Source: Bacillota bacterium (GTDB taxonomy: Bacteria > Bacillota > Clostridia > UBA1381 > UMGS1253). From it: a stretch of DNA of 64,000 nt. Positions within the stretch are counted from its first letter, which is position 1; each line of letters starts with the position of its first letter. Made by a program: the position numbers and the translations under genes. Shown here one piece after another: positions 1-25,638 of the stretch. Below the pieces are notes generated by a model. The model was not told the DNA's origin, did no database searches, and saw only the letters and a list, made by a program, of their open reading frames with translations. Location: the NCBI GenBank assembly GCA_022706785.1, contig JAKJBW010000001.1, positions 12,373-76,372 on the forward strand, read 5' to 3'.

Positions 1-1286
1 AATTTTACTCAAAAGAAGAATTAGCCGACCTACATAGTGTTTTGCAATATGCCGCAAATGACAGCAAAACTGCTATGCAGCATTTTGTTACGGGCATCAA
101 CTGTGTTGATACTCTGGCTTATGAGCAAATGACGCTTACCAAACGGCGGTTCGGCAAATCGGGTGGAAACCTTGCTTATCATGCATATCAGAGCTTTAAG
201 CCTGATGAGGTTACGCCAGAGCGGTGTCATGAAATCGGGGTGGAGCTGGCAAAACGTATTTGGGGTGACCGTTATGAGGTTGTTGTTTCCACGCATATTA
301 ATACAACCTGTGTTCACAATCATTTTGTGATAAATTCAGTTTCGTTTGTAGACGGCAAAAAGCTGAACAATAATTACGCTATGTATTTTGGCAATCTTCG
401 CAGAGAGTCGGATAATATCTGCCGGCAGAATGGCTTGTCGGTGATTGAAAATCCGGGTACACCTACGCCGGGGAATATTTATCTGGCCGAACGTGACGGA
501 GAGCCGACACGCTATAATGTTATGCGCGCGGATATTGATGATTGCATCCAGCATTCTATTACCAAAAAACAGTTTGGTTCATATTTGCGGGATCGGGGGT
601 ACGTAATTAATTTTGACGAGAACCGGAAATATTGGACGATTGCTTTTAAGGGTGACAAGCGGGCTACGCGGCTGGAGCGGCTTGGCGAAAACTACTCTAA
701 CGCCGTAATACAGAGCCGGATAGCCAAAAATTTTCTGAACAAGCCTGTTTATTTCACGACGCCCCAGATTAAGCGTTTTCGCATGAAGGGGAGCTTGAAC
801 CGAGCCAAAAAAATCACCGGATTTAGGGCGCTGTATCTTCATTACTGCTATCTTTTGGGCATTATACCAAAGCGAAAAGAGAAAAGAGTTCCTGTTTCGC
901 CCCAAATGCGTATGGAGCTTCGGAAATTTGAGCGGTACAAGGCCGAGATAGTGTTGCTTTTCAGAAATAATATTGACACAATCGAGCAGCTAAACAGCTT
1001 TATAGAACAGAAGAAAGCCGAGATATACAGGTGCGAAGATGAGCGCAGAAAAATTTACAATAAAATGCGGTCTGCGCCACCAGAAAACATTCAGGCGTTG
1101 CGAACAGACAGAGATACAGCTTCCGAGCGGATTAAATTAATCCGGAGGGAGCTTTTTTATTGCCGTGATATTTTGGAAAACAGTGAAAAGCTCAGGGGAA
1201 ATATAGCTCTGGAGCGCACCATACTCTATCACCCCTTAAAACAGCATGAAAAACAGAAAACCAAATTTCGAGAAAGGGAGAGGTAA
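1..1286 (+). CDS. Relaxase / mobilisation nuclease (MobA/VirD2-like), 5' end cut by the window edge
   Basis: The frame stays open from base 3 upstream of the listed TTG at 42. It aligns with the relaxase at 20486 (TKRRFGKSGGNLAYHAYQSF; STHINTTCVHNHFVINSVSF His-cluster block). Confidence 0.85.
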   Translation, partial: FYSKEELADLHSVLQYAANDSKTAMQHFVTGINCVDTLAYEQMTLTKRRFGKSGGNLAYHAYQSFKPDEVTPERCHEIGVELAKRIWGDRYEVVVSTHINTTCVHNHFVINSVSFVDGKKLNNNYAMYFGNLRRESDNICRQNGLSVIENPGTPTPGNIYLAERDGEPTRYNVMRADIDDCIQHSITKKQFGSYLRDRGYVINFDENRKYWTIAFKGDKRATRLERLGENYSNAVIQSRIAKNFLNKPVYFTTPQIKRFRMKGSLNRAKKITGFRALYLHYCYLLGIIPKRKEKRVPVSPQMRMELRKFERYKAEIVLLFRNNIDTIEQLNSFIEQKKAEIYRCEDERRKIYNKMRSAPPENIQALRTDRDTASERIKLIRRELFYCRDILENSEKLRGNIALERTILYHPLKQHEKQKTKFRERER

Positions 1287-1290
1287 CCAT

Positions 1291-1476
1291 ATGGCTAAAA
1301 ATTTTAATATACAATTAGGAAGTATAGATGATTTATTTTCGGCTGAGGAAACCCGACAGGACGCTTTAAAGGAGAAAGTTGAAAACATTAAGCTGTCAAA
1401 GTTATTTGCTTTTGAAAATCATCCCTTTAAGGTTAACCGGGATGATGAGCTGCAAAAGCTGATGGACAGCATTTGA
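1291..1476 (+). pseudogene. ParB-like N-terminal fragment, truncated by an internal deletion
   Basis: MAKNF..LFAFENHPFKVNRDDELQKLMDSI* matches the first ~60 aa of the intact ParB-like gene at 21880 (LAAFENHPFRVTQDADFQKLVDSIKGNG..) and then stops. An SD (AGGGAGAGG) lies before the ATG at 1291. Confidence 0.75.
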
Positions 1477-1479
1477 GCT

Positions 1480-1573
1480 GATCAAGGATGCAAATTTCAA
1501 GGTGGTACGAATCGGCAACACTATCCGTATTTCTAAGAAATCCTTTGATGATTGGCTGGATAGCTCTACATAA
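1480..1573 (+). pseudogene. 3' remnant of an excisionase-type HTH gene, with no start
   Basis: Encodes ..LIKDANFKVVRIGNTIRISKKSFDDWLDSST*, matching the C-terminus of Xis at 22863-23045. The 5' part is missing and it is fused directly to the parB fragment. Confidence 0.75.
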
Positions 1574-1649
1574 ATGAGATTTACACATTTGCAGAAGCGA
1601 ACGCCTATCGTTAAAATTTAATTAGCAAATTATGAAAGGATGAAGCATT

Positions 1650-3029
1650 ATGGCATCAATTATCAAAAGGAAAAAGGCGTATTCCGTAGTTTACAATTAT
1701 CAGGACGAAACCGGAGAGACAAGACAAAAGTGGGAAACATGTTATTCTCATAAGGAGGCTCTAAAACGCAAAGCCGAGATTGAGAACCAACAGCATGAAG
1801 GAACCTTTATTCCGCCAAGCAATCAATCAATAAGCGAATTTATGAAGGATTTCATTTCGTTATACGGTGAAAAAAAGTGGGGTGTTTCTACTTATGAAGC
1901 TAATGTTGGAATAACAGCCAATTATATCAACCCAATAATTGGTCACCTTGAAGTACAAAATATTACACCGAGGGTTGCCGACAAGTACATTCAAACACTG
2001 CAAAAAACACCTCCGGCAGCAACGAGAAGTCGAAAATCACCAACTACATTCTTATCTCCGCAAATGATTGATAAAATTATTTCTTTGCTAAAATGTGCGT
2101 TTAAGCAGGCTGTCCGTTGGGAAATGATTGGAAGAAATCCATTTGAAAATGCAGTTCTTCCTAAAGTTGAGTATAAACATCGGGATATCTGGACAGCAGA
2201 GATGATACGTAAGGCTTTGGATATGTGTACAGACAGCAAACTCTATATAGCGATGAATTTAGCATTTGCTTGCTCTCTGCGTATTGGTGAGGTGCTTGGA
2301 TTGACATGGGATAACTTGCATATTTCGGATGAAGACATTTCTCGCGATGATGCATATATTCAAGTTGAAAAAGAACTGACACGGGCTACAAAGCGTGCGC
2401 TGGATGCACTTGATAACAAAGATGTTATTCAAATTTTCAAACCATTGATGGCGAATACCCATACACGGCTTATACTAAAAAGACCAAAAACGGTAAGCAG
2501 CATTCGCAAGATCTGGCTTCCTAAAACAGTTGCATATATTATTCGCGAGTGGAAACAGTCACAGGACGAATTAAAGTCATTTCTTGGTGATGAATATGAA
2601 GATTATAATTTGGTCATTGCTTTACCCAATGGGCGACCTTGCGAAAACAGAGTAATTGAAAAAGCCTTTTTGGAATTAAAAGACGAAGCAGAACTGCCTG
2701 ATGTTGTATTCCACAGTTTGCGTCACTCCAGTACAACTTATAAACTCAAGCTTAATCATGGTGACTTGAAAGCAACACAGGGCGATACGGGACACGCTGA
2801 AATTGACATGATTACAAAGGTATATGCACACATTCTTGATGAGGACAGAAAAGTAAATGCACAAAAATTCGAAGCTGCATTTTACACCATGAAAAATCCT
2901 GATCTGAGAAATGTTACTCCGCCACAGGAACAAAATCCGCTTGATTTAGCAACGCTTATTGAACAACTGCAAAAATCACCAGAACTTGCACAGACATTAG
3001 CTAATTTAATTCAAGGAAAAAATAATTAA
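1650..3029 (+). CDS. Tyrosine recombinase / integrase (int1)
   Basis: 459 aa. C-terminal catalytic block VVFHSLRHSSTTYKL..GHAEIDMITKVYAHI (R..HxxR..Y). Paralogous to int2 at 23128 along its full length. Confidence 0.9.
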   Translation: MASIIKRKKAYSVVYNYQDETGETRQKWETCYSHKEALKRKAEIENQQHEGTFIPPSNQSISEFMKDFISLYGEKKWGVSTYEANVGITANYINPIIGHLEVQNITPRVADKYIQTLQKTPPAATRSRKSPTTFLSPQMIDKIISLLKCAFKQAVRWEMIGRNPFENAVLPKVEYKHRDIWTAEMIRKALDMCTDSKLYIAMNLAFACSLRIGEVLGLTWDNLHISDEDISRDDAYIQVEKELTRATKRALDALDNKDVIQIFKPLMANTHTRLILKRPKTVSSIRKIWLPKTVAYIIREWKQSQDELKSFLGDEYEDYNLVIALPNGRPCENRVIEKAFLELKDEAELPDVVFHSLRHSSTTYKLKLNHGDLKATQGDTGHAEIDMITKVYAHILDEDRKVNAQKFEAAFYTMKNPDLRNVTPPQEQNPLDLATLIEQLQKSPELAQTLANLIQGKNN

Positions 3030-3170: not shown

Positions 3171-3274
3171 TTAGCAAAAGAGTCGATTTCATTAGCAAAT
3201 TCTAAAAAATTGTTCGACTCCTAATTAGCAGGAATTGAACGGTCTTATTAGCAAAAATCATCGTTTCTTAGCAA
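3171..3274. repeat. Five direct TTAGCA(A/G) heptamers; candidate integrase arm-type sites of IME-1
   Basis: Copies at 3171, 3192, 3225 (TTAGCAG), 3248 and 3268, spaced 20-33 nt, between int1 and the tRNA fragment. The same motif array lies at 25239-25408. Confidence 0.6.
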
Positions 3275-3326: not shown

Positions 3327-3370
3327 TGGCACCCTCGACAGGGATCGAACCTGTAACTGACCCTTAGGAG
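3327..3370 (-). tRNA. 3' half only of a split tRNA-Arg(CCT): anticodon loop to CCA
   Basis: The reverse complement reads CTCCTAA-GGGTC-AGTT-ACAGG-TTCGATC-CCTGT-CGAGGGT-G-CCA. No D-arm or 5' acceptor follows. It complements the 5' half at 25586-25626. Confidence 0.8.
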
Positions 3371-3382
3371 AACTAAACATGC

Positions 3383-3531
3383 GATTTTAGGCTGTTTCGG
3401 CTTGTCGCTGATAATCACCGTAAAGCGTTGATATTAATGGATTTGCGGACGATTTGCTTCCCATTTTGTCACGGTTAAAACCGAGTGATTTTAGGCTGTT
3501 TTTGAATGTCAAATTAGCAAGGAATTAGCAA
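3383..3531. repeat. Left-arm motifs of IME-2
   Basis: GATTTTAGGCTGTTT occurs twice (3383-3397, 3487-3501) and TTAGCAA twice (3514-3520, 3525-3531), just inside the left junction. Confidence 0.55.
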
Positions 3532-3539
3532 GAACGCGG

Positions 3540-4724
3540 TTAGTATATCTCCGACATTAAAAAGTCTTTGATGTGAAAGTGCTTTATACCGTCTTGACTC
3601 ATATCAACAGCATCCATTGTAACCACAAATTTCGGAAAGTTGTCTTCAATTTTTTTAAGATTTCCAAACTCTCGTTCCTGTGTGGATTTGCTTGACATCA
3701 CATAGGCAACTTGAACATAGATTGTTTCTTTGTTTTTAACCCCGATAAAATCCACTTCTTTACCGCCGAGCGTTCCGACCGTGACAGTATATCCTCTGCG
3801 AAGCAGCTCAAGGCAAACAAGGTTTTCTAAAATCTTTTCAATGTCTTTCATGTTGTCGCCGTAAACGGCTTCTCGCAGACCGTGGTCAACGACGAAATAC
3901 TTCTCTGCAACATCAAGCAACTCTTTCCCTTGAATATCCTGTCGTTTGAGCCGATAGAACAGATACGCCTCTTCACAATATTTGAGATAGTTGAGAATGG
4001 TGTCGGTGCTGACCTTTCGACGCTCGTTTTTGAAATACTTTGCAATTGAAGTAGCTGAAAAGGTTGTTCCCACATTGGCAAGCACATAGGTGATAATTCG
4101 TTCGAGCAAATCAACATCACGAATATTATTGCGCTTGACCACATCTTTCAGAACAACCGAGTTATAGACATCTTCGAGATAGAGGGCTATCGCGTTTTCA
4201 TCGCCGATGATATTATTGATAAAGGGCATCCCGCCGTTTTTCAAGTAGTCATCAAAAGTTTTATCCTCGTTGAGTTCTAAAAACTCCTTGAACGACAGAG
4301 GGTATATCACAAATTGAACATATCTACCTGAAATCAATGTTGCAAGTTCACCCGACAGTAGTTTAGCGTTTGAGCCTGTGATATAGATGTCGGCATCAAA
4401 GTCAACACGGAATGAATTGACCACTTCTTCCCAGTTGTCCACTTCTTGAATCTCGTCAAAAAACAGATACCATTTATCTTTGCTGCCCGCAACCTTATTT
4501 AAGACATAATTATACAAGGCATCGTTCTTTTTAAATTTAGCGTTCTTCTTGCTCTCAAAGTTTAGGTAAATGCTGTGTTCGGGCTTGTTTATCTCATCGC
4601 AGATAAGCCCCAGCAGAACCGACTTCCCACTGCGGCGCAGTCCTGTAATGACTTTAACAACATCCTTGCCGATAAACGGACGGATTTGATTCAGATACAA
4701 GTCGCGTTTAATCATAATCATCAA
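3540..4724 (-). CDS. AAA+ ATPase of the AAA_14/DUF4143-like type
   Basis: P-loop GLRRSGKS near the N-terminus, Walker B-like LFFDEIQ, and a C-terminal block EVDFIGV..IYVQVAY resembling a degenerate PD-(D/E)xK tail. The SD AAGGAG favours the ATG at 4721 or 4715. Confidence 0.7.
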   Translation of the reverse strand: MMIMIKRDLYLNQIRPFIGKDVVKVITGLRRSGKSVLLGLICDEINKPEHSIYLNFESKKNAKFKKNDALYNYVLNKVAGSKDKWYLFFDEIQEVDNWEEVVNSFRVDFDADIYITGSNAKLLSGELATLISGRYVQFVIYPLSFKEFLELNEDKTFDDYLKNGGMPFINNIIGDENAIALYLEDVYNSVVLKDVVKRNNIRDVDLLERIITYVLANVGTTFSATSIAKYFKNERRKVSTDTILNYLKYCEEAYLFYRLKRQDIQGKELLDVAEKYFVVDHGLREAVYGDNMKDIEKILENLVCLELLRRGYTVTVGTLGGKEVDFIGVKNKETIYVQVAYVMSSKSTQEREFGNLKKIEDNFPKFVVTMDAVDMSQDGIKHFHIKDFLMSEIY

Positions 4725-4894: not shown

Positions 4895-5158
4895 TTATTT
4901 ATGACCTCCGCTTTCATTCTCAACTGATGAAATCACAAATTCCGGCAGATGCTTGTATAGCATATTCTCGTTTTTCACTTCAAAGTCATAAGTATATCCA
5001 GCATTTTTCAGACTAAAACATTCCGCATCTTCACCATATCTGTAGTCAACGACAAGAATCGTACCAATATGGATTTTGCCGTCAAACTCAAAGCGGTGGG
5101 CTCCTTTTTCATTGAATTGTTTAATAAAACAATCAACCGTCTCACAATTGGCTTTCAA
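4895..5158 (-). CDS. Hypothetical 87-aa protein trailing the helicase gene
   Basis: ORF only. TTG start, weak SD, 16 nt downstream of the helicase stop. No recognisable motif. Confidence 0.35.
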   Translation of the reverse strand: MKANCETVDCFIKQFNEKGAHRFEFDGKIHIGTILVVDYRYGEDAECFSLKNAGYTYDFEVKNENMLYKHLPEFVISSVENESGGHK

Positions 5159-5174: not shown

Positions 5175-7856
5175 TTATATGTCGCCTTCTTCGGCTGGGT
5201 CTGCTTTTATAATGTTTCTTAGATTTTTTTCGATTCTCTCCATTTCGTCTTTATGCTTTGTGATTTCTTGCAACTTGGAAAAATCAGTTATTACATATTT
5301 TCCTTCGGAGTTCACTTCGTACAAACTATTTGTATAGATTTCTTTTGCGACCTCGCGATTCACACCCATTTTTTGAAAAATGATAATAATATCGTTCATT
5401 GTTCCGTAGTCGATATAATCTGCAATCGTGTTTTCGGGGACATCGGTTTTCAATCCCCTATACAGTTTAACAAACTTAGTTATATAATTGCTTAAACTAA
5501 ATTTTAGCTCGTTTTCAATCTCGTCCATAACTTCCATTATGACATAGTTCTTCGCAACATCGGAATCTTTCCTATACGGCTTTTTTACCCTCTCATACTT
5601 ATCCCAGTATTCCCCATTTTTTTCATACCCGAACATTCTGCCAAAGATTATTTTTGAAAGCCTTTGCCCAGCAATCCAGCGCGAGGTTAATCTCGCATAA
5701 TGGCTTAGGGACTCGGTTTTCTTTTCAACATTACCTATTTGGTCTTTCCTTTCAAATACATCCCAACTGAAAACGTCATAGAGCTTAATGTAAAAATCGA
5801 AAATTTCAGCTGAGTTGCTTTCTATTGCCTGTTTTACTCTTTCTGAGGGCTCGTCATCTACTATATCTTCAATATGAACAATCTTTGGCAAACTAATCTT
5901 GTCAGTTGATATTTCTTCCTTGATTTTATTTACAATTTCGGGAGCAAAACGAATATCGAGAATATCCGCGCTATCAATCTCAATCAGCTCTTTACTTAAT
6001 TGCTCTTTTTCAATCAATGCCGCATAATGCTTATAAATAGGAGAGTTCTTGTCTGAACTTTTTAAGGCAATAGCAAGAACATTGCGATACATTACAAACT
6101 TTGCCAAATCGTCATAACTTTCGCTCTTTTTTTTATTAAAAACGAAGTTCCGGTTAAACAGACTTGTTACAATTTCTCGTTTGCGCCCATCCACCTCTGG
6201 CAACAATTTGTTTGACGATAATATCTGAGAAAAGTGTTTATGATACTCACCAACACTGTCTTGGCTGCAAATATTCAATAAAAAAGCATTGCCCCACAAA
6301 TTATAGCGGATTCTGCCTGCCCTGCCCATCAAGTTTTTAAGCTCTAATGTACTTAGTGTTGAAGTTCCTTTTTTATGTGACAAAACAAAAACATTGACGG
6401 CTGGAAGATTTACCCCCTCCAATAGCGTCGAAGTGCAAAATACTATATCTATTTTCCCGTTTTTTATGAGGTCTTCAACCGACCGCCTAATCTCCGCAGG
6501 CATTATGCCCATATGAAAAGCCACGCCCTTTTTAAGAAGCGGGATTAGGTAATAATCAGCATTGACATCTGATTTTATCTTTTTTATCAACTCATCGACA
6601 TCGCTATCCGAAGGCTTGTCCAATAGATTTTCGGCGTATTGACGGGCGTATTCTACTGCATCTGCCTTAGACTTGCAATATACGATTGTCGCTCCCCTTT
6701 TTGTCTGCTCACAAACAATATCTTTCCAATCCTTTTTAATGCAGGCAATAGAAATAATTGTTTTTTCCAAATTGTTATATATTTCGATATTTCCTGTTAA
6801 CGAATCAATAATGAATTGCTTTTGCGATACAGGTGAAAAATCGAAAGCATCCGACCTCGCTATTTCTTGACGATTTTCCTTATACGGGTTTGAAATCAAG
6901 TTCAATAGTTCCTCCGGGTTTTTGGCATACGGTGAAGAAAAAAATACTTTGGCAAGCCGCATTTCCGTGTTCACTTTTTCTAAAATTTTATAGTAATAGG
7001 GCGTCCTACTATCGTTCTCGAAAATCTTCTGCGCCTCGTCAATAAACAAATAGTCGATTTTGGGAACAATCCCATCATTGAACGCTTGTAACAATCTTTC
7101 GGGCGTAAATATCAAAATCTTTTTTTGGCTTCTAAAAAAATGAATTTGGTCAGGAATTGTAATGATTACATAGTTATTACCTTTGAGTTCTCTCTCGTAT
7201 TTGTCCGTCAAATCGTTTTCGATTTCATTTATCAATGCCTTGGTCGGTAAAACCATTACTATACAATCGGTTTCAACTTCTTCAAGTTTTTGAGACAAAA
7301 AATTTCTGATAATATATGTTTTTCCCATTGATGTCGGCGCGGAAAAACTATAAAATTGCATATTACATAGATTTCTAAAAGCCTCTTTTTGTGCATCGGA
7401 AAAGTATTCTGTTTCGTTGTTGGGGACTTTGTTTATCATTTTATCGACTTCTTCAGACAACAACGACAAAAAATCCTCTGACAGCTCCGCTCCGCCCATA
7501 TCTACTTTTTCAAGCCCAGCGTAATTTGATGCGTTTTTAAGAACTATTTTTTGCACGGCGGAAATGTGCAACTTTGCTTCTTCGTTGTCTTCAAAGACAA
7601 ACGATAGCATAATCACAATTTCTTGTGCCAAGTTGCGGTGGAAACTAATTTTATTTGTTACATTTGATTTTGAGAATAAATCTGCATATCGAAGAAGGTC
7701 TTTTATTTCTTGTTGTGTAATTAAATTTACGGGACTAACCGCAAAGGTTCTTGCACCGTAATTTTCTAACAGTTTCGTGTAGAGCGAGCGAAAATAGGCG
7801 TGCTGTTCTGCCGCCGCCAAAATAATATCTCCTTTTGTTATCCTAAATGCGCTCAT
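5175..7856 (-). CDS. hamB: SF2 (Ski2/DEAD-like) helicase, Hachiman HamB-like
   Basis: Motif I APTSMGKT (aa 173-180), II DEAQ (273-276), V TSTLLEGVNLPA, VI GRAGR (511-515), plus a ~330-aa C-terminal extension. It starts 2 nt after the upstream nuclease-like gene. Confidence 0.6.
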   Translation of the reverse strand: MSAFRITKGDIILAAAEQHAYFRSLYTKLLENYGARTFAVSPVNLITQQEIKDLLRYADLFSKSNVTNKISFHRNLAQEIVIMLSFVFEDNEEAKLHISAVQKIVLKNASNYAGLEKVDMGGAELSEDFLSLLSEEVDKMINKVPNNETEYFSDAQKEAFRNLCNMQFYSFSAPTSMGKTYIIRNFLSQKLEEVETDCIVMVLPTKALINEIENDLTDKYERELKGNNYVIITIPDQIHFFRSQKKILIFTPERLLQAFNDGIVPKIDYLFIDEAQKIFENDSRTPYYYKILEKVNTEMRLAKVFFSSPYAKNPEELLNLISNPYKENRQEIARSDAFDFSPVSQKQFIIDSLTGNIEIYNNLEKTIISIACIKKDWKDIVCEQTKRGATIVYCKSKADAVEYARQYAENLLDKPSDSDVDELIKKIKSDVNADYYLIPLLKKGVAFHMGIMPAEIRRSVEDLIKNGKIDIVFCTSTLLEGVNLPAVNVFVLSHKKGTSTLSTLELKNLMGRAGRIRYNLWGNAFLLNICSQDSVGEYHKHFSQILSSNKLLPEVDGRKREIVTSLFNRNFVFNKKKSESYDDLAKFVMYRNVLAIALKSSDKNSPIYKHYAALIEKEQLSKELIEIDSADILDIRFAPEIVNKIKEEISTDKISLPKIVHIEDIVDDEPSERVKQAIESNSAEIFDFYIKLYDVFSWDVFERKDQIGNVEKKTESLSHYARLTSRWIAGQRLSKIIFGRMFGYEKNGEYWDKYERVKKPYRKDSDVAKNYVIMEVMDEIENELKFSLSNYITKFVKLYRGLKTDVPENTIADYIDYGTMNDIIIIFQKMGVNREVAKEIYTNSLYEVNSEGKYVITDFSKLQEITKHKDEMERIEKNLRNIIKADPAEEGDI

Positions 7857-7858
7857 AA

Positions 7859-8833
7859 TTACCCACCTAAAATGCTATTCATTATGTCTGCCTTGTCCGT
7901 CACAACATCATTAAAAGGCAGGAAGAAAACATAATAATCGCAGTTTGTATTTGTCCCCATTTCCGAAATCTTATCAATAATTTTTTGCTTGACTGAATCA
8001 ATATCAGTTTTAACTTTGCAATCAATCGCTTCTTTTGGGGTGGTTGAAATTGCTGTCGGAAATTCAAAGGTATACCCGATAAAAATTCCGAATACGTTTT
8101 CAGTTTCAATACTCGAACTCGCATTTCTATATCCAGGTATAATAATTTGTTTTAAGACTTCTGCTTCCTCCTCCGTTGATACAATTTCAGTGAAAAATTT
8201 TGTGTCAAGCAAGTTGAAGTCCGTGTCTTTACGTGAAAAACACTCGGATAAAGATTGAAAAGCCTCATTTATAGCCTCTGTAAACACTTTTTTCATTTTA
8301 GATTCGCCATAGACTATTTGATATGCTTTATATGTAGGATAGTCTTTGACCATAAAATGAATGCCGTCAAATCCTTTCACATAGTCGTTATTGTTCGTTT
8401 TAATTTCAACCTTGGACAACAATTTTTTTGCCCCTAAAAACCCCTCAAAAAAGATGTAGAGCAATAATTCGCCAAGCTCTGCACCAGCCCCCTTGTCGGG
8501 ATTTCCATCGGCAGGTGAAACAGGTCTTAATTTTTTTATCGCATCGTTATATGCAAGCTGCCATTCCTCGTTTTCTATGCTTTTTGAATAGTTTTTTCGG
8601 TTCAGAACATAGTTTGCAATATTATTTTTTATGAGCCGTTTTAGACCTTCATATTCAAATTTTAAGTTGCTATTATTCAGTGCGTACAGCTTTAGTTTCT
8701 GACAAAGCGTCCCGCCAGCAGGAGCAATATCAATTTCCTCGACAAATCGGAAGCACGACAATAAATCCTTGCCTTTTTGAATCGTTAGCGGCAAAGCATT
8801 TTCAATTATTATCTCAAAATCATTTTCAGACAT
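7859..8833 (-). CDS. hamA: PD-(D/E)xK nuclease-like protein, Hachiman HamA (DUF1837)-like
   Basis: ELGELLLY..GFDGIHF..YGESKMKK gives an E/D/ExK layout. AAAGGAG sits 8 nt before the ATG at 8833 (MSENDF..); the longer listed ORF would overlap hsdR. Confidence 0.55.
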   Translation of the reverse strand: MSENDFEIIIENALPLTIQKGKDLLSCFRFVEEIDIAPAGGTLCQKLKLYALNNSNLKFEYEGLKRLIKNNIANYVLNRKNYSKSIENEEWQLAYNDAIKKLRPVSPADGNPDKGAGAELGELLLYIFFEGFLGAKKLLSKVEIKTNNNDYVKGFDGIHFMVKDYPTYKAYQIVYGESKMKKVFTEAINEAFQSLSECFSRKDTDFNLLDTKFFTEIVSTEEEAEVLKQIIIPGYRNASSSIETENVFGIFIGYTFEFPTAISTTPKEAIDCKVKTDIDSVKQKIIDKISEMGTNTNCDYYVFFLPFNDVVTDKADIMNSILGG

Positions 8834-8867
8834 ATCTCTTGCTCCTTTTGACATGGGAATATTTAAC

Positions 8868-11800
8868 TCACTCTGCATATTTCTTAAAATTCTCAGCCTG
8901 TTCAAATATCTCCTTAAACACATCATCATTTGTAACGGGCGGATAGCCGTGCTTGGCGAGGACGAGGATAATATCCACTTTCAACTCTGCTTTAATATCA
9001 TCGCGCCGTGACCAGTCTGTATATTTTGCTTTGTCATCAACAATTATTTTCATTTCTCGCGATAACACAATCAGCTTATCGTGTGAATACTCAAATTCAT
9101 ATTTTTCGGCGATGGAGTTCAATATGTCATAAAATGCTTTTTCTTCAAAATCAATCCCCATACCGACAAACGAACTTTTTTCTGATTTTAATTCCTCAAG
9201 GAGCTTTGCCAACTGGTCGGCAACATCGTCAAGAACCTCATTGGCATATTTTTCATCCTTCCGACGGTTATTGTAATCCTCAATCAGTTTTTTCAAACGG
9301 TCAGCAAATTCCACCCCCTTGATTTTATTGACCTTACGAAACTCCTCAATCGCTTGCGAAAGAAGCTGTTGCAATATCTTTATTTTTGTATTTGGCAGCG
9401 GTATCTTTGCAATTCGCGCCATATATTCATCACTGAAAATATCTATGTCAATATGTTTACCCGTTTCAAACAACGCTTCCACTCCGTCCGCTTGGATTGC
9501 TTCAGCAATCATTTCACGAACACGGGCGTTCATTTGTGTGAGGTCGGGCGCATCACCTTTCGTCAGTTTAAAAAGAATAGAACGAACTGCCACATAAAAA
9601 TGAATATGCTCGCGTTCTTCATCGGAAATGGATTCGCTTGACGCACACAAATCAAATGCCTTTTTCAAACGGCGAACTGCTGCCATAAATCGCAGTTCTA
9701 AATCTTTCGTAAGCTGAACATATTCCACGGCGCGATTCAGGCAATCAAGCTGTTGCTTCGGCGTCCCCGTGAAAAAGTCCGTTTTATTGAAATTATGGAA
9801 CATCTGCGCCAAAACTTCGAGCTGGTCTTTGACAATCGTCACAGACTGCTCGATCCCCTCAAATTCATCTGCGGTAAAGTTTGTGTACTTAGCAAGCGCT
9901 TTGTTCATATTGTTTTTGATACCGATATAATCAACAATCAATCCCTTTTCTTTGCCTTCATAAACACGATTAACACGGGAGATTGTTTGGATAAGCGTGT
10001 GCTGTTGAATCGGTTTATCAATATAAATCGTATCAAGACAAGGTACATCAAAGCCTGTCAGCCACATATCCACGACGATTGCTATTTTGAAATTCGACTT
10101 TGCCTGCTTGAACTGTCGGTCAAATTCCTTGCGGTCGTCTTTTGTGCCGAGCATATTGTATAATTCTTTGACATCGTCCTTATTTCGGGTCATCACCATT
10201 TGAACTTTGGGTGATGCTTTTAATTTTTTTCGTTCATCATCGGTCAACGCTACATCGTCATCACATATTTTTGCCTCAGCCCATTTGGGACGCATTTCAA
10301 TGATGATTTTATATAGGTCATACGCGATGGTGCGGTTTGAACAGACAAACATCGCTTTTCCCGCGACGGTTGCGCCCTCGCGTACACGAGTTTCGTAATG
10401 CCGGGTAACATCAGCGGCAACGGCTCGAAGCCTGTCCGGATCGCCGATAATTACGTCAAGGTGAGCGACAGCTTTTTGACTTTCTTCAATCTGATGCTCA
10501 TTTGCGCCCTGCGCTTCGCATTTTGCATAGTATTCCTCAATTTCACGCAGACGTTCTTCGTTCAATGTGACTTTCGCGGCACGTCCGTCGTAAACAAGAT
10601 TAACTGTGATTCCGTCTTTTACAGATTCGGTCATCGTATAGCTGTCTACAACCGCGCCGAAAACATCAATTGTCGCATCTATCGGTGTTCCCGTGAACCC
10701 GACATATGTGGCGTTCGGCAGGCTGTCATGCAAATATTTAGCGAAACCGTAAGAACGCAGAACGCCCTCAGCTTTGATAACAACCTTTTGGTCGAGATTT
10801 ACCTGTGAGCGGTGTGCTTCATCCGATATGCAAATAACATTATATCGGTCGGTCAGCAGTTGCGTGTCCTCGGTGAATTTTTGAACTGTGGTTAAATACA
10901 CGCCTCCGCTTGTGCGTCCTTGCAATTCGGTCCGAAGTTGCTCCCGCGATTCAATGCTGATAACCGTATTATCGCCGATATAATCTTTCGACGCTACAAA
11001 TTGCGTCGAAAGTTGGTCATCCAAATCTGTACGGTCAGTAATAAGCACAATCGTGGGGCTTTTGAGAAACATATCCTTCATCAACAACCGCGTCAAAAAT
11101 AGCATTGTAAAGCTCTTGCCGCAACCGGTCGCTCCGAAATATGTACCACCCTTACCATCTCCGTCCGGGCGAAGGTGTGATTTTATATTCCCAAGCAGCT
11201 TTTCGGCGGCGAAATATTGCGGGTAACGGCATACTACTTTCAGATCGTTTTTAGCATTATCGGGGAAATATATGTAATGTTTAACCACTTTCAAAAAGCG
11301 GTCTTTACGGAAAAGTCCTTTGACCATACTAACAAGCGAAGGAATCCCGTCAACCTCCGGCGCGTCATCGTCGATTTTACGCCAAGCATAGAAATAATCA
11401 TACGCTGCGAATGAAGAACCGTATTTATTGTTCGCGCCATCGCTGATAACGATAAAAGCGTTATATTTAAACAATTCGGGAATATCCCGTTTATATCTGA
11501 TAGTCAACTGGTCATACGCGTTGGCGATAGTCGTGTTCTCCTTAACCGCGCTTTTAAATTCCAGCACCACAATCGGAAGCCCGTTTACATAGATAATAGC
11601 GTCGGGAATACGCAGTTCATATCCCTGTATTTCAACTTGATTTACAATTTTAAATATGTTGTTATCGGGATTTACAAAATCTATCAGTTCAACGAGAAAA
11701 TCCTTTTGTGCTCTGTCTTCGCGGTTGAGAATGAAACCGTTTTGAATCATCTTGAAAGCCATTTTGTTCGCTTCATATACCGAGCCGGATATAGAACGCA

Positions 11801-12022: not shown

Positions 12023-13015
12023 TTATCCCAAATATCGCCGATGCGCGATTTTCACATTATTTTGATTTACCATTGCGTAGTGCATAGTCGTATCAATTTT
12101 CACATGACCGAGCAGCCTTTGTACCTGCTCAATAGGCATCCCTTTGTCAATTGCCACCGTTGCCAGTGTTCGTCGGAATCGGTGGGGATGCACCTTGGCG
12201 ACTTGTGCCTCTTTTCCGAGTTTTTGAAGAACCCGCTCCACGCCGCTGATTGTCAGCCGGTTATACGGCGACTTGCTTGATATAAACAGCGCGGGATCAT
12301 TGTCAGTCCGTTTTTCCAAATATTCCGCCAGATGCAGTTTAGTCCGTGCGTCGAAATAAACCTCCCGCTCGCTTTCGCCTTTGCCGAATACGATACACGA
12401 CCGTTCATTAAAATTAATGTCCGTACGGTTCAGCCGCACCAATTCGCCGACGCGGACTCCCGTTGACACGAGGATTTCCACAAGCGCGAGATTACGGAGA
12501 TTTCCGCAAGTGTCCCGCAAAACTTCTAAATCCTCATCCGAAAACGCTTCCTTGATGATCTTTGCGGTTTTTACCTTGTGGATTCGCCGGACAGGGCTTT
12601 TTACGATATAATCCTCATCCTCCAGCCAAGAGAAGAAACTTGAAAATATCCGGCGAATATTATCAATCGTAACCTTGCTCGAACGGTTCTCCTGCTGATA
12701 TTTTGCGAGATAGCCGCGCAAATCGTCGGTGGTGATGTCTTTGACCCACTTGCCCAGCGCAATCATCAGTTTTGTAATCGTCGCCCGGTAGTATTCCAGC
12801 GTTTTTTCGGAACAGCCCTCTACACGCTTCGCTGCTATAAAGCTTTTGAGGAAATGCGCGTTTTCTTTCATGTCGTCCAAATCCTGATTTGTCTGTTCCG
12901 TTACCGCCGCCCTTGCAAGCTCGCGACATAATACATTTTTCAATTCCTCCGCCTGCCTGCTGTCGATAATCCCTGCCATGCCGTGCAGGATGTTCCTGAT
13001 AAATTGCTCTTTCAT
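12023..13015 (-). CDS. Tyrosine recombinase (Xer/integrase-like) embedded in the R-M locus; likely hsdS invertase
   Basis: 330 aa. Contains ..HPHRFRRTLAT..LLGHVKIDTTMHYA.. (R-H-R-Y). Lies between hsdR and the invertible hsdS region. Confidence 0.85.
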   Translation of the reverse strand: MKEQFIRNILHGMAGIIDSRQAEELKNVLCRELARAAVTEQTNQDLDDMKENAHFLKSFIAAKRVEGCSEKTLEYYRATITKLMIALGKWVKDITTDDLRGYLAKYQQENRSSKVTIDNIRRIFSSFFSWLEDEDYIVKSPVRRIHKVKTAKIIKEAFSDEDLEVLRDTCGNLRNLALVEILVSTGVRVGELVRLNRTDINFNERSCIVFGKGESEREVYFDARTKLHLAEYLEKRTDNDPALFISSKSPYNRLTISGVERVLQKLGKEAQVAKVHPHRFRRTLATVAIDKGMPIEQVQRLLGHVKIDTTMHYAMVNQNNVKIAHRRYLG

Positions 13016-13068
13016 TTATTTGCTGCCTCCTTGTGTTTTTTCGGCGTTGCCGCCATATTTATTGCACA

Positions 13069-13092
13069 AGGTCAGCTAAATGATAATTTAGA
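13069..13092. repeat. hsdS recombination repeat, copy d (plus-sense QLNDNLE)
   Basis: GGTCAGCTAAATGATAATTTAGAG, identical to 14228-14251. Lies just past the hsdS stop. Confidence 0.85.
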
Positions 13093-13095
13093 GAC

Positions 13096-14205
13096 TTAGG
13101 AAGATGTCAACTGAGAAAGTAGTGTTGTTTGTAAGCGTATAAGCTGTTTAATCTCCTGTTTAATCTCGGATATATTAATAAAAAGAGGCTCACATATCAT
13201 CGCAAAGTCATTAAGAGAATTTAGTGTTGGTACTAAAATGATTGTCTTTTTGAAATCAGGAACCGTAATCTGCTGCTGTGATGTACCCGTACTATTCATT
13301 AACGAATTTTTCAAGTAGAAGTATATATACTTCGCTGAGATAACAGTTTTTTTCGGGACTACTGATATAAGCCTGACAATGGGTACATAGGGCTGCTCTC
13401 GCAAAAAAACATATCCGACTGTACCTCTTGCAGAAACAGTAACACTTTCCTCGAATATTTTAGCTTTGTTTGTATATCCGTAAAGTCCTTCATCAGATAT
13501 TCCGTTTGAATAGATTGGTATTTGGCATTCTTCGGTAAAAGTCTCTTTGAAAACTAAAGGTCTATCTCCGCCAGCACTTAATTCCGCTACTTTTTCAAGT
13601 GTTAGAAATTGCCAGCCTTTAGGAAGCACGGTTTTGTTCTTCAAGTAGGCATCAAATTTATACTTGAAAACTGTTTCTGCCGTAGCCTCTAAATTATCAT
13701 TTAGCTGCCGTTTCAATGCGATTCGGTCGGTTATTGCCTGATGCGCTTTGACAACCGCCTTTTGCTTATCGAGCGAGGGAACGGGCAGCTTCATACCGCA
13801 AAAATCGTCCCAAGTCATACTTCCGCGTACCCCGCCTACACCGAGGAAACTGGCTTCACGGTCAAATTCAGAGCGTTTGAACCACATCGCAAGGTACTCC
13901 GGCATCAGTTCTTGCGGATCTGTGACCTCAAAAACATGATAAGCAGGCGACACTATGGCAACTTCGTAGTCAGCAAGGCGGTCGATGGGAATCTTTTCAT
14001 CACGGCTGACCTGCATAAGGCTACAAGCAAACTGATTTTTCCGAATGACCTTATACTTAGTCAAGTCTGTGCCGATGGTATTTGCTACTGAGGGCATAAA
14101 GCGCTTGTTTATGCTCACACCAAGTAAAAGCGTTGCCTGTGAATCAGTGTTCCGCTCATCTACGGGTCTTATATAGTCCCTTATTGGAGTGTAGTTTGTG
14201 TGCAT
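13096..14205 (-). CDS. hsdS: Type I R-M specificity subunit, full length (TRD1-b + TRD2-b)
   Basis: 369 aa with two target-recognition halves separated by the conserved RQLNDNLEATAE, and a C-terminal coiled-coil QLIRLQTTLLSQL. Confidence 0.9.
   Translation of the reverse strand: MHTNYTPIRDYIRPVDERNTDSQATLLLGVSINKRFMPSVANTIGTDLTKYKVIRKNQFACSLMQVSRDEKIPIDRLADYEVAIVSPAYHVFEVTDPQELMPEYLAMWFKRSEFDREASFLGVGGVRGSMTWDDFCGMKLPVPSLDKQKAVVKAHQAITDRIALKRQLNDNLEATAETVFKYKFDAYLKNKTVLPKGWQFLTLEKVAELSAGGDRPLVFKETFTEECQIPIYSNGISDEGLYGYTNKAKIFEESVTVSARGTVGYVFLREQPYVPIVRLISVVPKKTVISAKYIYFYLKNSLMNSTGTSQQQITVPDFKKTIILVPTLNSLNDFAMICEPLFINISEIKQEIKQLIRLQTTLLSQLTSS
13677..13709. repeat. hsdS recombination repeat, copy c (inside the full hsdS, minus-sense)
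   Basis: 13677-13707 is a perfect 31-bp reverse complement of 14231-14261. Confidence 0.85.
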
Positions 14206-14227
14206 AGGTCTTCCTTTCCGCTGAACT

Positions 14228-14261
14228 GGTCAGCTAAATGATAATTTAGAGGCTACGGCAG
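14228..14261. repeat. hsdS recombination repeat, copy b (plus-sense)
   Basis: Direct repeat of 13069-13092 and inverted repeat of copies c and a. Confidence 0.85.
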
Positions 14262-14785
14262 GGGCTTTGTTCACCGAAATGTTCTTGGGGTCAGATAGCG
14301 GTGTAACTGGGAAACTATCCGACCTTATGGACTTCAAAAACGGTAAATCACGACCCGACGACAGTGGTCAAATACCTGTTTATGGTGGCAATGGAGTGTT
14401 GTCCTACACGAATATCTTCAATGCTACTAACGTAGTAGTCATAGGGCGAGTTGGCGCATATTGCGGGAGCCTTTATTTGGAGTTTGGAGATTGCTGGATA
14501 AGTGATAATGCCATCTATGCCAAATCCAAACTTTGCCCCGATGAATACTTCGACTACTTTCTGCTTAGAAGTCTGTCAATAGGCGATCACCATATTGGAA
14601 CGGGACAACCGCTTCTGACACAAGGCATACTTAATTCGGTTGAAGCACCTATTCCAAGCGTTAAAGATATTGGCAAATTCAACAGCAACGCCAAACCGCT
14701 CTATGACAGAGTTGTGAGTAATCACACTGAAATAGAGGCTTTGAGCAATATGCAGGGCGTACTGCTTGCCAATCTCGCCCGTTAA
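14231..14785 (+). other. Silent inverted hsdS half-cassette (TRD2-c), promoterless
   Basis: The plus-strand frame reads QLNDNLEATAGALFTEMF...VLLANLAR*. It begins in the conserved repeat and has no start codon or SD of its own. Confidence 0.8.
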
Positions 14786-15298
14786 ATTATCATTTAGCTG
14801 CCTTAAATGCCTAATCCGCTTCTCGATGGTGTCATACGCCAAAACAATCCTTTTCTGCTCATCAATATCCGGCACGGGCAGCTCGACTTTGCGCAATTCA
14901 TCCCAGTCAAAAATCTCGCGGACACTGCCGTGGCTCTTAAAACGGGCATAACGGTCAAACTCCGGGCGTTTAAACCATAACATCAAATATTCCGGTAACA
15001 ATTTCTCTTTATCCGCCACCTCGAAAACAGTATAAATATTGGAAACAAGCCCTTCTTCCCAATCTTGTAATAACGCAATAGCAATACGATCGCCGCGGCG
15101 AGAGGTGTCAGGAACGTATGTAAACTGACCTTTTTGCACAACTTTATATTTTGAAAAATCTGTACCAACCGTATTCGCAATAGATGGCATAAAATATTTT
15201 TGCGTGGTCACACCGAGCAAATTTTCTTCTTTGCCCGCAGTGTTCCGCAGATCAATCGGTTGTATGTATTGTCCAAGCGGTTTATAATTCGATTTCAT
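14576..15298 (-). CDS. hsdS: hsdM-proximal hsdS, currently TRD1-a only, running into the antisense of the silent cassette
   Basis: The first ~165 aa are a good HsdS TRD ending in RQLNDNL. The remaining ~75 aa (TGEIGKQYALHIAQSLYF..) are antisense of 14576-14785. Its start overlaps the hsdM stop. Confidence 0.75.
   Translation of the reverse strand: MKSNYKPLGQYIQPIDLRNTAGKEENLLGVTTQKYFMPSIANTVGTDFSKYKVVQKGQFTYVPDTSRRGDRIAIALLQDWEEGLVSNIYTVFEVADKEKLLPEYLMLWFKRPEFDRYARFKSHGSVREIFDWDELRKVELPVPDIDEQKRIVLAYDTIEKRIRHLRQLNDNLTGEIGKQYALHIAQSLYFSVITHNSVIERFGVAVEFANIFNAWNRCFNRIKYALCQKRLSRSNMVIAY
14783..14806. repeat. hsdS recombination repeat, copy a (in the hsdM-proximal hsdS, minus-sense)
   Basis: TAAATTATCATTTAGCTGCC. 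The 18-bp core TAAATTATCATTTAGCTG is shared by all four copies. Confidence 0.85.
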
Positions 15299-16850
15299 AT
15301 CCCAACTCCTTAAATACGGCGAGCAAGTCGGATTTCGACTGTTCCTCCGCGATTAGCAGCTCCCGCAGTTCCGACTGAAGCGTTTTCATCTTGGTATCAA
15401 AATCAATGTTTTCATCGCGGTTGATAAATTCAATATAACGGCTTGGCACGAGAGTGAAGCCCTTTTCGGCGATTTCATCATATGTCGCGTTGTAACAGAA
15501 CTCCGGCACATTCTCATAGCTTTCTTCATACCCAACCTGCTGCCACGCATGATAAACATCGCAGACCTTTTGGCGGTCGGTTTCCGTAAGCTCCACGAAT
15601 TTCTTTTCATAGGGTGAACCCATTTGGCGCAAATCCATAAACAGTATTTCACGCTGGCGGTCGCGATACTTTTTCAACTTTCCATTTTGTTCAACAGTAC
15701 GGGCGGTTTTGTTTTTATTTAAAATCCAAAGCGTCACGCTTATGTCGGTAGTGTAAAACAGACTACGCGGCAGGATGATAATTGCTTCGACAAGATTGTT
15801 TTCAATAAGCTGTTTGCGTATTTTCAGCTCGGTTCCGTCATCTGAAAGCGCACCGTTGGCAAGAAGAAATCCCGCTACGCCATTTTGTGATAGTTTGGAA
15901 ACGATATTGAGAATCCACCCATAATTGGCGTTGCTCGTAGGCGGCACTTCATAGCCGCTCCAACGCGGATCGTCGGTTAGTTCATTATCAGCTCGCCATT
16001 CTTTTTGGTTAAAAGGTGGGTTCGCCATGATGAAATCGGATTTCAAATCCTTATGCTGGTCATTTGAAAAGGTGTTCGCCGCTTGCTCACCGAGGTTTCC
16101 GCTGATGCCTCGAATAGCGAGGTTCATTTTGGCGAGCTTATATGTGGTGTTTGTATATTCCTGCCCATAAATAGAAATATCGCGGGTGTTGCCCTGATGG
16201 CTTTCTATAAATTTGATTGACTGCACAAACATACCGCCGGAACCGCAGCACGGGTCATAAATCTTACCTTTATAAGGCTCAATCATTTCGGCAATCAGGT
16301 TAACGATACATTTTGGTGTGTAAAACTCACCCTTGCCTTTTCCTTCGGCAAGCGCAAATTTTCCAAGAAAATATTCATACACACGCCCGATGATGTCCTG
16401 TTCCGCATCATCAGTATTGATTTTATTGATTTCATCAAGAAGAGAAGCGAGCTTGGCGGTATCAATATGTAAACGGGAATAATAGTTATCCGGCAGCGCG
16501 CCTTTAAGCGACGGGTTGCTTTTTTCTACAGTGAATAATGCGGTGTCTATTCGCAGGGCAATGTCGTCCTGTTTCGCGTTTTCCATGATATATGACCAGC
16601 GGGATTCGGCAGGGAGAAAGAACACGTTTTTCATCGTATAAAACGCGTCCATATCAAGATATTGCTCCTTGCCCTCGCCAATAAGCTCCTGACGGCGCAC
16701 TTCAAATTTATCACTGGCAAATTTCAAAAAAAACAAACTCAAAACAACGTGCTTGTACTCAGCAGGCTCAACAGAACCGCGAAGCTTGTCCGCTGATTTC
16801 CAGAGAGCTTCTTCCATCGTGATTTCTTTTTTCGCTTTAGCAACAGCCAT
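15282..16850 (-). CDS. hsdM: Type I R-M N6-adenine methyltransferase subunit
   Basis: DPCCGSGG (AdoMet-binding) and NPPF motifs, with HsdM N-terminal domain LWKSADKLRG. Start taken at MAVAKAK (ATG at 16850), overlapping the fic stop as TAATG. Confidence 0.9.
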   Translation of the reverse strand: MAVAKAKKEITMEEALWKSADKLRGSVEPAEYKHVVLSLFFLKFASDKFEVRRQELIGEGKEQYLDMDAFYTMKNVFFLPAESRWSYIMENAKQDDIALRIDTALFTVEKSNPSLKGALPDNYYSRLHIDTAKLASLLDEINKINTDDAEQDIIGRVYEYFLGKFALAEGKGKGEFYTPKCIVNLIAEMIEPYKGKIYDPCCGSGGMFVQSIKFIESHQGNTRDISIYGQEYTNTTYKLAKMNLAIRGISGNLGEQAANTFSNDQHKDLKSDFIMANPPFNQKEWRADNELTDDPRWSGYEVPPTSNANYGWILNIVSKLSQNGVAGFLLANGALSDDGTELKIRKQLIENNLVEAIIILPRSLFYTTDISVTLWILNKNKTARTVEQNGKLKKYRDRQREILFMDLRQMGSPYEKKFVELTETDRQKVCDVYHAWQQVGYEESYENVPEFCYNATYDEIAEKGFTLVPSRYIEFINRDENIDFDTKMKTLQSELRELLIAEEQSKSDLLAVFKELGYEIEL

Positions 16851-25534: not shown

Positions 25535-25566
25535 GTATTTACTTTTTGTGTGATTTTATGCAGTTT

Positions 25567-25626: not shown

Positions 25627-25638
25627 ATATTCAATTTT

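What the first reader, a model, noticed from the sequence alone, without database searches (positions are those of the whole stretch)
5175..8833. Nuclease-like protein plus large SF2 helicase pair: Hachiman-like, or a new variant of that architecture
- The 324-aa protein has E..E (ELGELLLY), D (GFDGIHF) and ExK (YGESKMKK) in the order and spacing of a PD-(D/E)xK fold.
- Two nucleotides downstream starts an 893-aa helicase with motifs I (APTSMGKT), II (DEAQ), V (TSTLLEGVNLPA) and VI (GRAGR). It also has ~170-aa N-terminal and ~330-aa C-terminal extensions of unknown role.
- A DUF1837-type nuclease followed by a Ski2-like helicase is the published Hachiman (HamA/HamB) layout.
- I cannot confirm family membership without an HMM search.
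- If the small protein is not DUF1837, this would be an undescribed nuclease-helicase defence pair.
Basis: partly seen in the sequence, partly recalled or inferred. Interest (0 to 1): 0.6.

Follow-up and report, generated by a model that had tools for sequence, protein, structure and literature searches.

The report
Ordinary Hachiman (HamA/HamB) phage-defence pair

Summary
On the minus strand, a 324-aa protein (7859-8833) is followed after 2 nt by an 893-aa SF2 helicase (5175-7856), and every quoted motif is present.

- The small protein matches Pfam HamA/DUF1837 (148.5 bits, cutoff 25) and PADLOC HamA1 end to end (8.8e-65).
- The helicase matches PADLOC HamB1 end to end (4.1e-198).

Further support:
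- The HamA nuclease residues E119, E122, D156, E177 and K179 are invariant or nearly so among relatives.
- An AlphaFold model of the small protein finds solved HamA chains as its three best PDB matches.
- A HamB gene sits directly downstream of HamA in 84 of 86 related loci.
- HamA has no extra N-terminal effector domain. This makes it type I-A Hachiman, the majority clade in the literature.
- The helicase "extensions" are standard HamB domains.
- orf87 is not part of the system.

The pair lies in a defence island (Fic, phase-variable type I R-M, Hachiman, PDC-S01) on an integrative mobilizable element at a tRNA-Arg gene.

Verdict: a new member of a known kind, of low interest. Function is inferred from homology and was not tested.

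The parts
7859..8833 (-). hamA: 324-aa DUF1837 / PD-(D/E)xK-type nuclease, the effector of type I-A Hachiman
   Evidence: Pfam PF08878 HamA 3.6e-43, 148.5 bits, profile 3-230/230. PADLOC HamA1 PDLC00162 8.8e-65, profile 11-305/310. AF2 model pLDDT 80, pTM 0.84. Foldseek top hits are 8vxy_A, 8vx9_A and 8zue_A, all at probability 1.00.
8842..8847 (-). AAGGAG Shine-Dalgarno site, 8 nt upstream of the hamA ATG (8833-8831). It lies in the 34-nt gap after the hsdR stop codon (8868-8870).
   Evidence: Read from the sequence.
8456..8479 (-). HamA motif 1, ELGELLLY (residues 119-126). E119, G121 and E122 are invariant.
   Evidence: Alignment A1 of 19 HamA proteins. It corresponds to the GD..E motif that was mutated in S. 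thermophilus HamA (PMC13064477).
8354..8374 (-). HamA motif 2, GFDGIHF (residues 154-160). D156, G157 and H159 are invariant. D156 is the catalytic Asp.
   Evidence: The spacing E122 to D156 is 34 residues, the same as E93 to D127 in S. thermophilus HamA.
8288..8311 (-). HamA motif 3, YGESKMKK (residues 175-182). E177-x-K179 is the catalytic ExK.
   Evidence: At least 90% conserved in A1. By motif order and spacing it corresponds to the published catalytic ExK pairs: E138/K140 in ECOR31, E150/K152 in DEC14B and E147/K149 in S. thermophilus. No residue-level alignment to those three proteins was made.
5175..7856 (-). hamB: 893-aa Ski2/Hel308-like SF2 helicase, the sensor/motor of Hachiman. It starts 2 nt after the hamA stop codon.
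   Evidence: PADLOC HamB1 PDLC00190 4.1e-198, residues 7-882 against profile 7-863/866. Pfam DEAD and Helicase_C. PDB 9wh1_B 4e-67 over residues 17-843.
7317..7340 (-). HamB motif I / Walker A, APTSMGKT (residues 173-180). G178 and K179 are invariant.
   Evidence: Conservation in 71 distinct HamB partner proteins.
7029..7040 (-). HamB motif II / Walker B, DEAQ (residues 273-276). D273 and E274 are invariant.
6399..6434 (-). HamB motif V, TSTLLEGVNLPA (residues 475-486).
   Evidence: T475, S476, T477, L478, G481, N483 and P485 are invariant.
6312..6326 (-). HamB motif VI, GRAGR (residues 511-515).
   Evidence: G511, R512, G514 and R515 are invariant.

Best explanation
This is a canonical two-gene type I Hachiman anti-phage system. 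It belongs to subtype I-A of Cui et al. 2025, in which HamA is a bare DUF1837 domain with an intact PD-(D/E)xK active site.

The mechanism below is inferred from characterised homologues and was not shown here.
- HamA and HamB form a 1:1 complex through the alpha-helical N-terminal domain of HamB.
- The complex surveys DNA.
- A 3' single-stranded DNA end, or DNA damage produced during phage infection, enters the helicase channel of HamB and triggers ATP hydrolysis.
- The resulting conformational change licenses the HamA nuclease (D156, E177, K179).
- HamA then degrades DNA indiscriminately and aborts the infection.

The module is cargo of an integrative mobilizable element. It sits in a defence island directly downstream of a phase-variable type I restriction-modification operon.
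For: Shown here:
- HamA matches the Pfam and PADLOC HamA models, and HamB matches the PADLOC HamB1 model, far above threshold and end to end.
- HamA catalytic residues are invariant or nearly so across 19 relatives. Their spacing matches the experimentally mutated S. thermophilus motifs.
- The AF2 model (pLDDT 80) finds only solved HamA chains at significant E-values. Restriction endonucleases (EcoO109I, MspJI, FokI, BamHI) and Cap4 follow below significance.
- All SF2 motif residues of HamB match residues that are invariant in 71 HamB partners.
- A HamB homologue lies directly downstream, on the same strand, in 84 of 86 related loci. The 2-nt spacer is conserved in a relative at 58%/62% identity that sits in an unrelated mobile-element context.
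- HamA has no other Pfam domain, and the protein is covered end to end by the HamA1 profile.

From the literature:
- HamAB mechanism and mutants: PMC12278908, PMC11914072, PMC13064477.
- Type I-A is 86.4% of 1781 representative HamA sequences.
Against: - Nothing functional was tested: no defence phenotype, no expression data and no complex prediction.
- Sequence similarity to the best-studied system (ECOR31, 8VX9) is weak. HamB reaches only 1e-10 over the RecA2 region. HamA is not detected there even by a profile. Foldseek TM-scores are moderate, 0.38-0.54, with rmsd 7-8.5 A.
- The closest solved HamB (9wh1_B) belongs to a trypsin-HamA/MBL variant whose effector logic differs.
- Published studies disagree on whether HamA is released from HamB or acts within the complex, so the licensing step is uncertain.
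Confidence: 0.9

Rival explanations
1. Extended or coupled system. hamAB works together with neighbouring genes: orf87 as a third component or regulator, or the upstream type I R-M enzyme, whose cleavage products (DNA ends) would feed the HamB sensor from a shared transcript.
For: - Only 34 nt separate the hsdR stop codon from the hamA start, and no terminator-like site lies between them.
- orf87 starts 16 nt after the hamB stop codon.
- All cargo genes share one orientation.
- Extended Hachiman loci (PezAT-Ham, abiJ-Ham) are known in Streptococcus.
Against: - orf87 has no homologue in any of 86 HamA loci.
- Its relatives occur elsewhere. In L087 one sits upstream of an AAA_21 ATPase without hamB.
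- In the window, the family's usual ATG start is missing from orf87.
- Type I R-M genes accompany hamAB in only a handful of the 80 genome loci.
- hamAB has 36% GC against 43-44% for hsdR and hsdM, which points to separate acquisition.
- Promoter-like sites exist inside the 3' end of hsdR (9212-9185 and 9130-9101).
Confidence: 0.06
2. A housekeeping DNA-repair helicase-nuclease pair (Hel308-like) rather than a defence system.
For: The HamB core resembles Hel308/Ski2 helicases.
Against: - Hel308 equivalog models score 55-71 bits against cutoffs of 887-1216, whereas HamB1 scores 659 bits.
- The pair lies on a low-GC mobile element among R-M, Fic and PDC-S01 defence genes, not among core genes.
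Confidence: 0.02
3. A decayed or silent copy: the genes look intact but are non-functional cargo.
For: - There are no expression data.
- The neighbouring orf87 appears to have lost its usual start codon, so some local rearrangement has occurred.
Against: - Both ORFs are full length relative to family profiles and relatives.
- All catalytic and helicase motif residues are intact.
- Good ribosome-binding sites are present.
Confidence: 0.04

Closest known systems
Type I-A Hachiman (HamA = DUF1837 only, active site intact; e.g. E. coli DEC14B HamAB, Cui et al. 2025, PMC11914072)
   Same: - Two co-oriented genes with hamA first.
- HamA of about 300 aa with a conserved E..E / D / ExK motif set and no extra domain.
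[quoted passage not shown]
   Different: - A different host lineage: relatives are mostly gut Clostridia MAGs.
- The nearest public relative other than itself is 60% identical.
- The nearest representative at the 50%-identity cluster level is 45% identical.
- Not characterised experimentally.
E. coli ECOR31 HamAB (PDB 8VX9/8VXA/8VXC/8VXY; Tuck et al. 2024, PMC12278908)
   Same: - The HamA fold: Foldseek probability 1.00, the top PDB hits.
- The same nuclease-plus-Ski2-like-helicase logic.
- By motif order and spacing, the ExK catalytic pair corresponds to E138/K140 of ECOR31 HamA; no residue-level alignment was made.
   Different: - Very distant in sequence. HamB reaches only 1e-10 over about 100 residues. 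HamA is not found by a sequence profile.
- The deposited ECOR31 HamB chain is 1174 residues, and it has an OB-like C-terminal domain reported only for subtype III-A.
- Motif II is DEGH there and DEAQ here.
Klebsiella trypsin-HamAB-MBL (PDB 9WH1; bioRxiv 10.1101/2025.09.03.673762)
   Same: - The closest solved HamB: 4e-67 over residues 17-843.
- Its HamA DUF1837 domain matches the profile of the window's HamA family at 9.6e-34.
   Different: - That HamA carries an N-terminal trypsin domain. It lacks the nuclease residues: K, H, A and F stand at the positions of E119, D156, E177 and K179 here.
- Its effector is a separate MBL nuclease.
- Here there is no trypsin domain, none of the ORFs scanned with Pfam matched an MBL-fold family, and the active site is intact.
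AbpAB / type I-B Hachiman of E. coli K-12 (PDB 8ZUE)
   Same: HamB homology (8zue_B 1.4e-22). The HamA fold matches 8zue_A.
   Different: AbpA has an N-terminal Cap4 nuclease fused to a catalytically dead DUF1837 domain. Here HamA is a stand-alone DUF1837 domain with live catalytic residues.
Hel308 / Ski2-like helicases
   Same: RecA1-RecA2 core and SF2 motifs.
   Different: - Scores lie far below the Hel308 equivalog cutoffs.
- It has the HamB-specific N-terminal domain and a dedicated nuclease partner.

Membership tests
Hachiman type I (HamA + HamB) | HamA carries the DUF1837 / HamA domain (PF08878) | tested here: met
   148.5 bits against a gathering cutoff of 25, profile 3-230/230. PADLOC HamA1 217 bits, end to end.
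Hachiman type I (HamA + HamB) | HamB is an SF2 helicase that matches HamB-specific profiles over its whole length, with intact helicase motifs | tested here: met
   PDLC00190 HamB1 658.8 bits, residues 7-882 of 893. Motif Q, I, Ib, II, V and VI residues are identical to residues invariant in 71 HamB proteins; motifs Ia, III and IV are present but not fully invariant.
Hachiman type I (HamA + HamB) | hamA and hamB are adjacent and co-oriented, with hamA upstream | tested here: met
   2-nt spacer. The same arrangement occurs in 84 of 86 related loci.
Hachiman type I (HamA + HamB) | HamA and HamB form a heterodimer through the HamB N-terminal helical domain | not testable with these tools
   No multimer prediction is available. 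The only indirect evidence is that the HamB N-terminal region aligns with 9wh1_B from residue 17.
Hachiman type I (HamA + HamB) | Confers phage resistance / DNA-damage-triggered DNA degradation that depends on both active sites | not testable with these tools
   Needs experiments.
Hachiman subtype I-A (Cui et al. 2025) | HamA consists of DUF1837 only, with no N-terminal effector fusion | tested here: met
   324 aa. HamA is the only Pfam family hit. The HamA1 profile covers residues 21-323.
Hachiman subtype I-A (Cui et al. 2025) | PD-(D/E)xK catalytic residues are conserved in DUF1837 | tested here: met
   E119, E122 and D156 are invariant. E177 and K179 are at least 90% conserved. A fused relative (P0015, 493 aa) lacks the ExK pair, as expected for fused subtypes.
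Hachiman type II (HamA2/HamB2/HamC) | Best match to the HamA2/HamB2 profiles and presence of a third gene, hamC | tested here: not met
   HamA2 scores 99 bits against 217 for HamA1, and HamB2 259 against 659 for HamB1. No third gene is conserved: orf87 is absent from all 86 related loci.
Type I-B (AbpAB) and trypsin-HamAB-MBL variants | N-terminal Cap4 or trypsin domain on HamA, a dead DUF1837 domain, and (for the latter) an MBL effector gene | tested here: not met
   No extra domain is present, the active site is intact, and none of the ORFs scanned with Pfam matched an MBL-fold family.
Hel308 DNA helicase (NCBIfam equivalogs) | Score above the equivalog cutoff | tested here: not met
   55-71 bits against cutoffs of 887-1216.

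The most novel reading that the evidence does not exclude
hamAB is transcribed as the tail of the phase-variable type I R-M operon (fic-hsdM-hsdS-recombinase-hsdR-hamA-hamB) and is functionally coupled to it. Restriction of unmodified phage DNA by HsdR would create the free DNA ends that HamB senses. Hachiman would then act as a second, amplifying layer whose trigger is supplied by the first, and its activity would vary with hsdS phase switching.
Probability: 0.08. Interest if true: 0.4.

Novelty: new member of a known kind. Interest (0 to 1): 0.1.

Why it matters
It matters little beyond annotation. The locus adds one more uncharacterised type I-A Hachiman, from what is probably a gut Firmicute, to a family with hundreds of sequence clusters. 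Modest points of use:
- It is a clean example of a bare, catalytically intact HamA paired with a HamB whose closest solved relative belongs to a trypsin-fused, nuclease-dead variant. This could help trace how effector swapping happened within one HamB clade.
- It shows Hachiman travelling with Fic, a phase-variable type I R-M system and PDC-S01 as cargo of a tRNA-Arg-targeting mobilizable element.

Tried and rejected
- NCBIfam has no model that hits HamA. It gives only sub-threshold Hel308 hits for HamB.
- The search for related loci with the 19-sequence alignment A1 failed because no stretch was conserved enough. The run succeeded with the closer set A3.
- A megablast hit to a Planktothrix plasmid first looked like hamB. 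The coordinates were query-relative, and the hit is the hsdR gene.
- orf87 as a third Hachiman component was rejected.
- A profile search of the PDB with the HamA alignment finds 9wh1_A only, not the ECOR31 or K-12 HamA chains. Those links rest on Foldseek.
- The host taxon was not determined. The window's genome is not among the GTDB representatives that were hit (best 46%).
- The promoter/terminator scan was not enriched over shuffles enough to settle the operon structure.
- HamB structure prediction and a HamA-HamB complex prediction were not run. The first was judged unnecessary, and no multimer tool is available for the second.
Full report
**What is there.** Both genes lie on the minus strand.
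- The upstream ORF can be read from 8929 (356 aa). That extension overlaps the stop codon of the preceding hsdR gene (TGA, 8868-8870).
- The ATG at 8833 is preceded by AAGGAG at 8 nt. The identical public protein and its close relatives are 324-331 aa.
- hamA ends with TAA at 7859-7861. Two bases later the 893-aa ORF starts at 7856 and runs to 5175.
- Two small corrections apply. The proposed D188A/K211A mutants are numbered on the 356-aa ORF and are D156/K179 in the real protein. The C-terminal region after motif VI is about 380 aa.

**Family assignment.**
- The small protein matches Pfam PF08878 (HamA, formerly DUF1837) at 3.6e-43. It scores 148.5 bits against a cutoff of 25 and covers the whole profile. 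It has no other domain.
- Against PADLOC it matches HamA1 models end to end. The best is PDLC00162 at 8.8e-65.
- The helicase matches HamB1 models end to end. The best is PDLC00190 at 4.1e-198, residues 7-882 against profile positions 7-863 of 866.
- HamA2 and HamB2 (type II) models score much lower.
- NCBIfam has no HamA hit. For HamB it gives only Hel308 equivalog hits far below cutoff.

**Active sites.**
- In an alignment of 19 HamA relatives (19-61% identity), E119, G121, E122, D156, G157 and H159 are invariant. G176, E177 and K179 are at least 90% conserved.
- These are the three HamA motifs whose mutation abolished defence in S. thermophilus HamA (D90/E93, D127, E147/K149), with matching spacing.
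- By motif order and spacing, the ExK pair corresponds to E138/K140 of ECOR31 HamA and E150/K152 of DEC14B HamA. No residue-level alignment to those proteins was made.
- A 493-aa relative with an N-terminal fusion (P0015) has lost the ExK pair, as the literature describes for fused subtypes.
- In HamB, the residues of motifs Q, I, Ib, II, V and VI are identical to residues invariant across 71 distinct HamB proteins taken from related loci. Its length of 893 aa is within their range of 752-932.

**Structure.**
- An AlphaFold2 model of HamA built on the 19-sequence alignment has mean pLDDT 80 and pTM 0.84.
- Foldseek against the PDB returns only three significant hits, all HamA chains at probability 1.00: 8vxy_A, 8vx9_A and 8zue_A.
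- Non-significant hits follow, to restriction endonucleases (EcoO109I, MspJI, FokI, BamHI) and Cap4.
- By sequence, HamB is closest to 9wh1_B (4e-67 over residues 17-843), then 8zue_B (1.4e-22), eukaryotic and archaeal Ski2-like helicases, and 8vx9_B (1e-10).
- The N- and C-terminal 'extensions' are thus the standard HamB N-terminal helical domain, which binds HamA in the solved complexes, and the C-terminal helical domain.

**Conservation of the pair.**
- Among 86 loci that encode HamA relatives, 84 carry a HamB homologue immediately downstream on the same strand. The set comprises 80 from GTDB species representatives and 6 from metagenomes.
- Most of these loci come from gut Clostridia MAGs. 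Bacteroidota, Proteobacteria and others are also represented.
- A relative at 58%/62% identity keeps the same 324-aa and 895-aa genes and the same 2-nt spacer. It sits in a quite different context of serine recombinases and a TetR/MFS pair.
- Flanking genes are not conserved. Type I R-M genes lie nearby in only a few loci.
- A full phmmer scan of 1.84 billion cluster representatives gives 701 clusters at E<=1e-3 and 259 at E<=1e-10. The nearest representative is 45% identical.

**orf87.**
- The 87-aa ORF downstream (4895-5158) has no Pfam, PADLOC or NCBIfam hit.
- It has no homologue in any of the 86 loci.
- It does belong to a small family, with seven relatives at 73-83% identity.
- Those relatives start with MRN(M/L)F. 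In the window that start codon is replaced, and the N-terminus is unrelated.
- In the one relative with usable context, the gene precedes an AAA_21 ATPase. Nucleotide similarity to the window begins only at 5094, so hamB is not upstream there.
- It is not part of Hachiman.

**Context.**
- The pair is cargo of an element of about 22 kb with low GC: 36-44% against 51% for the flanking chromosome.
- The element is bounded by a tRNA-Arg(CCT) gene at 25460-25534 and by a partial copy of the tRNA 3' half at 3327-3371.
- It encodes an integrase, a ParB-like protein, a MobA/VirD2 relaxase, a NikA-like protein and TnpV.
- A second relaxase-integrase set lies to its left.
- Its cargo is all on the minus strand, in this order: a Fic protein (PDC-S04/SoFic-like), hsdM, hsdS genes with an invertible half-gene and a tyrosine recombinase, hsdR, hamA, hamB, orf87, and an AAA_14/DUF4143 ATPase (PDC-S01, 6e-154).
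- hamAB has 36% GC against 43-44% for hsdR and hsdM, which suggests separate acquisition.

**Mechanism (inferred).** Three published studies bear on this.
- Tuck et al. 2024: HamB restrains HamA on intact DNA. Entry of a 3' ssDNA end triggers ATPase and conformational change, and HamA then degrades phage and host DNA.
- Cui et al. 2025: HamA alone is inactive, and the HamAB complex cleaves DNA. Type I-A systems depend on the DUF1837 ExK residues.
- Tian et al. 2025: HamA is activated by HamB, mainly through ATP binding.

Whether HamA is released or acts in complex is unsettled in the literature. The rest transfers to this locus by homology with high confidence.

**Verdict.**
- The 'new variant' alternative is not supported.
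- This is a new, uncharacterised member of the commonest Hachiman subtype, and its interest is low.

Noticed in passing
window 3327-25534: An integrative mobilizable element of about 22 kb sits at tRNA-Arg(CCT) (25460-25534, minus strand). A partial copy of the tRNA 3' half lies at 3327-3371 (40 of 45 identical). The element carries an integrase (23128-24498), a ParB-like gene (21811-22815), a relaxase (20477-21883), a NikA-like gene (20172-20525) and TnpV (19050-19436). GC is 36-44% against 51% for the chromosome to the right.
   Followed up: partly
window 42-3029: A second, related relaxase (42-1286) and integrase (1650-3029) set lies immediately left of the partial tRNA copy. It is 72-83% identical in stretches to the first set (repeat families D1-D3). 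This suggests a tandem array of two mobilizable elements at the same tRNA site.
   Followed up: partly
window 3171-3274, 3514-3531, 25239-25408: The heptamer TTAGCAA is clustered next to both tRNA-like ends. These short stretches hold 12 of the 21 copies in the window. They may be arm-type recombinase binding sites.
   Followed up: partly
window 12023-15298: A phase-variable type I R-M specificity locus. It has hsdS at 13096-14205 and 14576-15298, an oppositely oriented half hsdS at 14267-14785, and a tyrosine recombinase at 12023-13015. Perfect inverted repeats (CAGCTAAATGATAATTTAGAG) lie at about 13073, 13690, 14231 and 14783.
   Followed up: partly
window 4895-5158 (-): orf87 belongs to a small family of about 77-aa proteins of unknown function. 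In the window it has lost the family's usual ATG start and has an unrelated N-terminus. Elsewhere (L087) a relative precedes an AAA_21 ATPase, and here it precedes an AAA_14/DUF4143 ATPase. It may be a partner of ATPase modules, or a remnant.
   Followed up: partly
window 3540-4724 (-) and 16850-17794 (-): Two further candidate defence genes flank the R-M/Hachiman block. One is an AAA_14 + DUF4143 ATPase that matches PADLOC PDC-S01 (6.1e-154). The other is a Fic-domain protein that matches PDC-S04 and SoFic models.
   Followed up: no
window 25580-25700: Degenerate tRNA-like repeats lie next to tRNA-Arg. The stretch 25580-25638 is 81% identical to 25488-25546. ARAGORN does not call them as tRNA genes.
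   Followed up: no
L088 (Planktothrix agardhii plasmid NZ_LR882964.1): hsdR and hsdM of the window are 67-69% identical at the nucleotide level to a cyanobacterial plasmid region. In that plasmid's gene table the hsdR part has no listed gene, so it may be a pseudogene there.
   Followed up: partly
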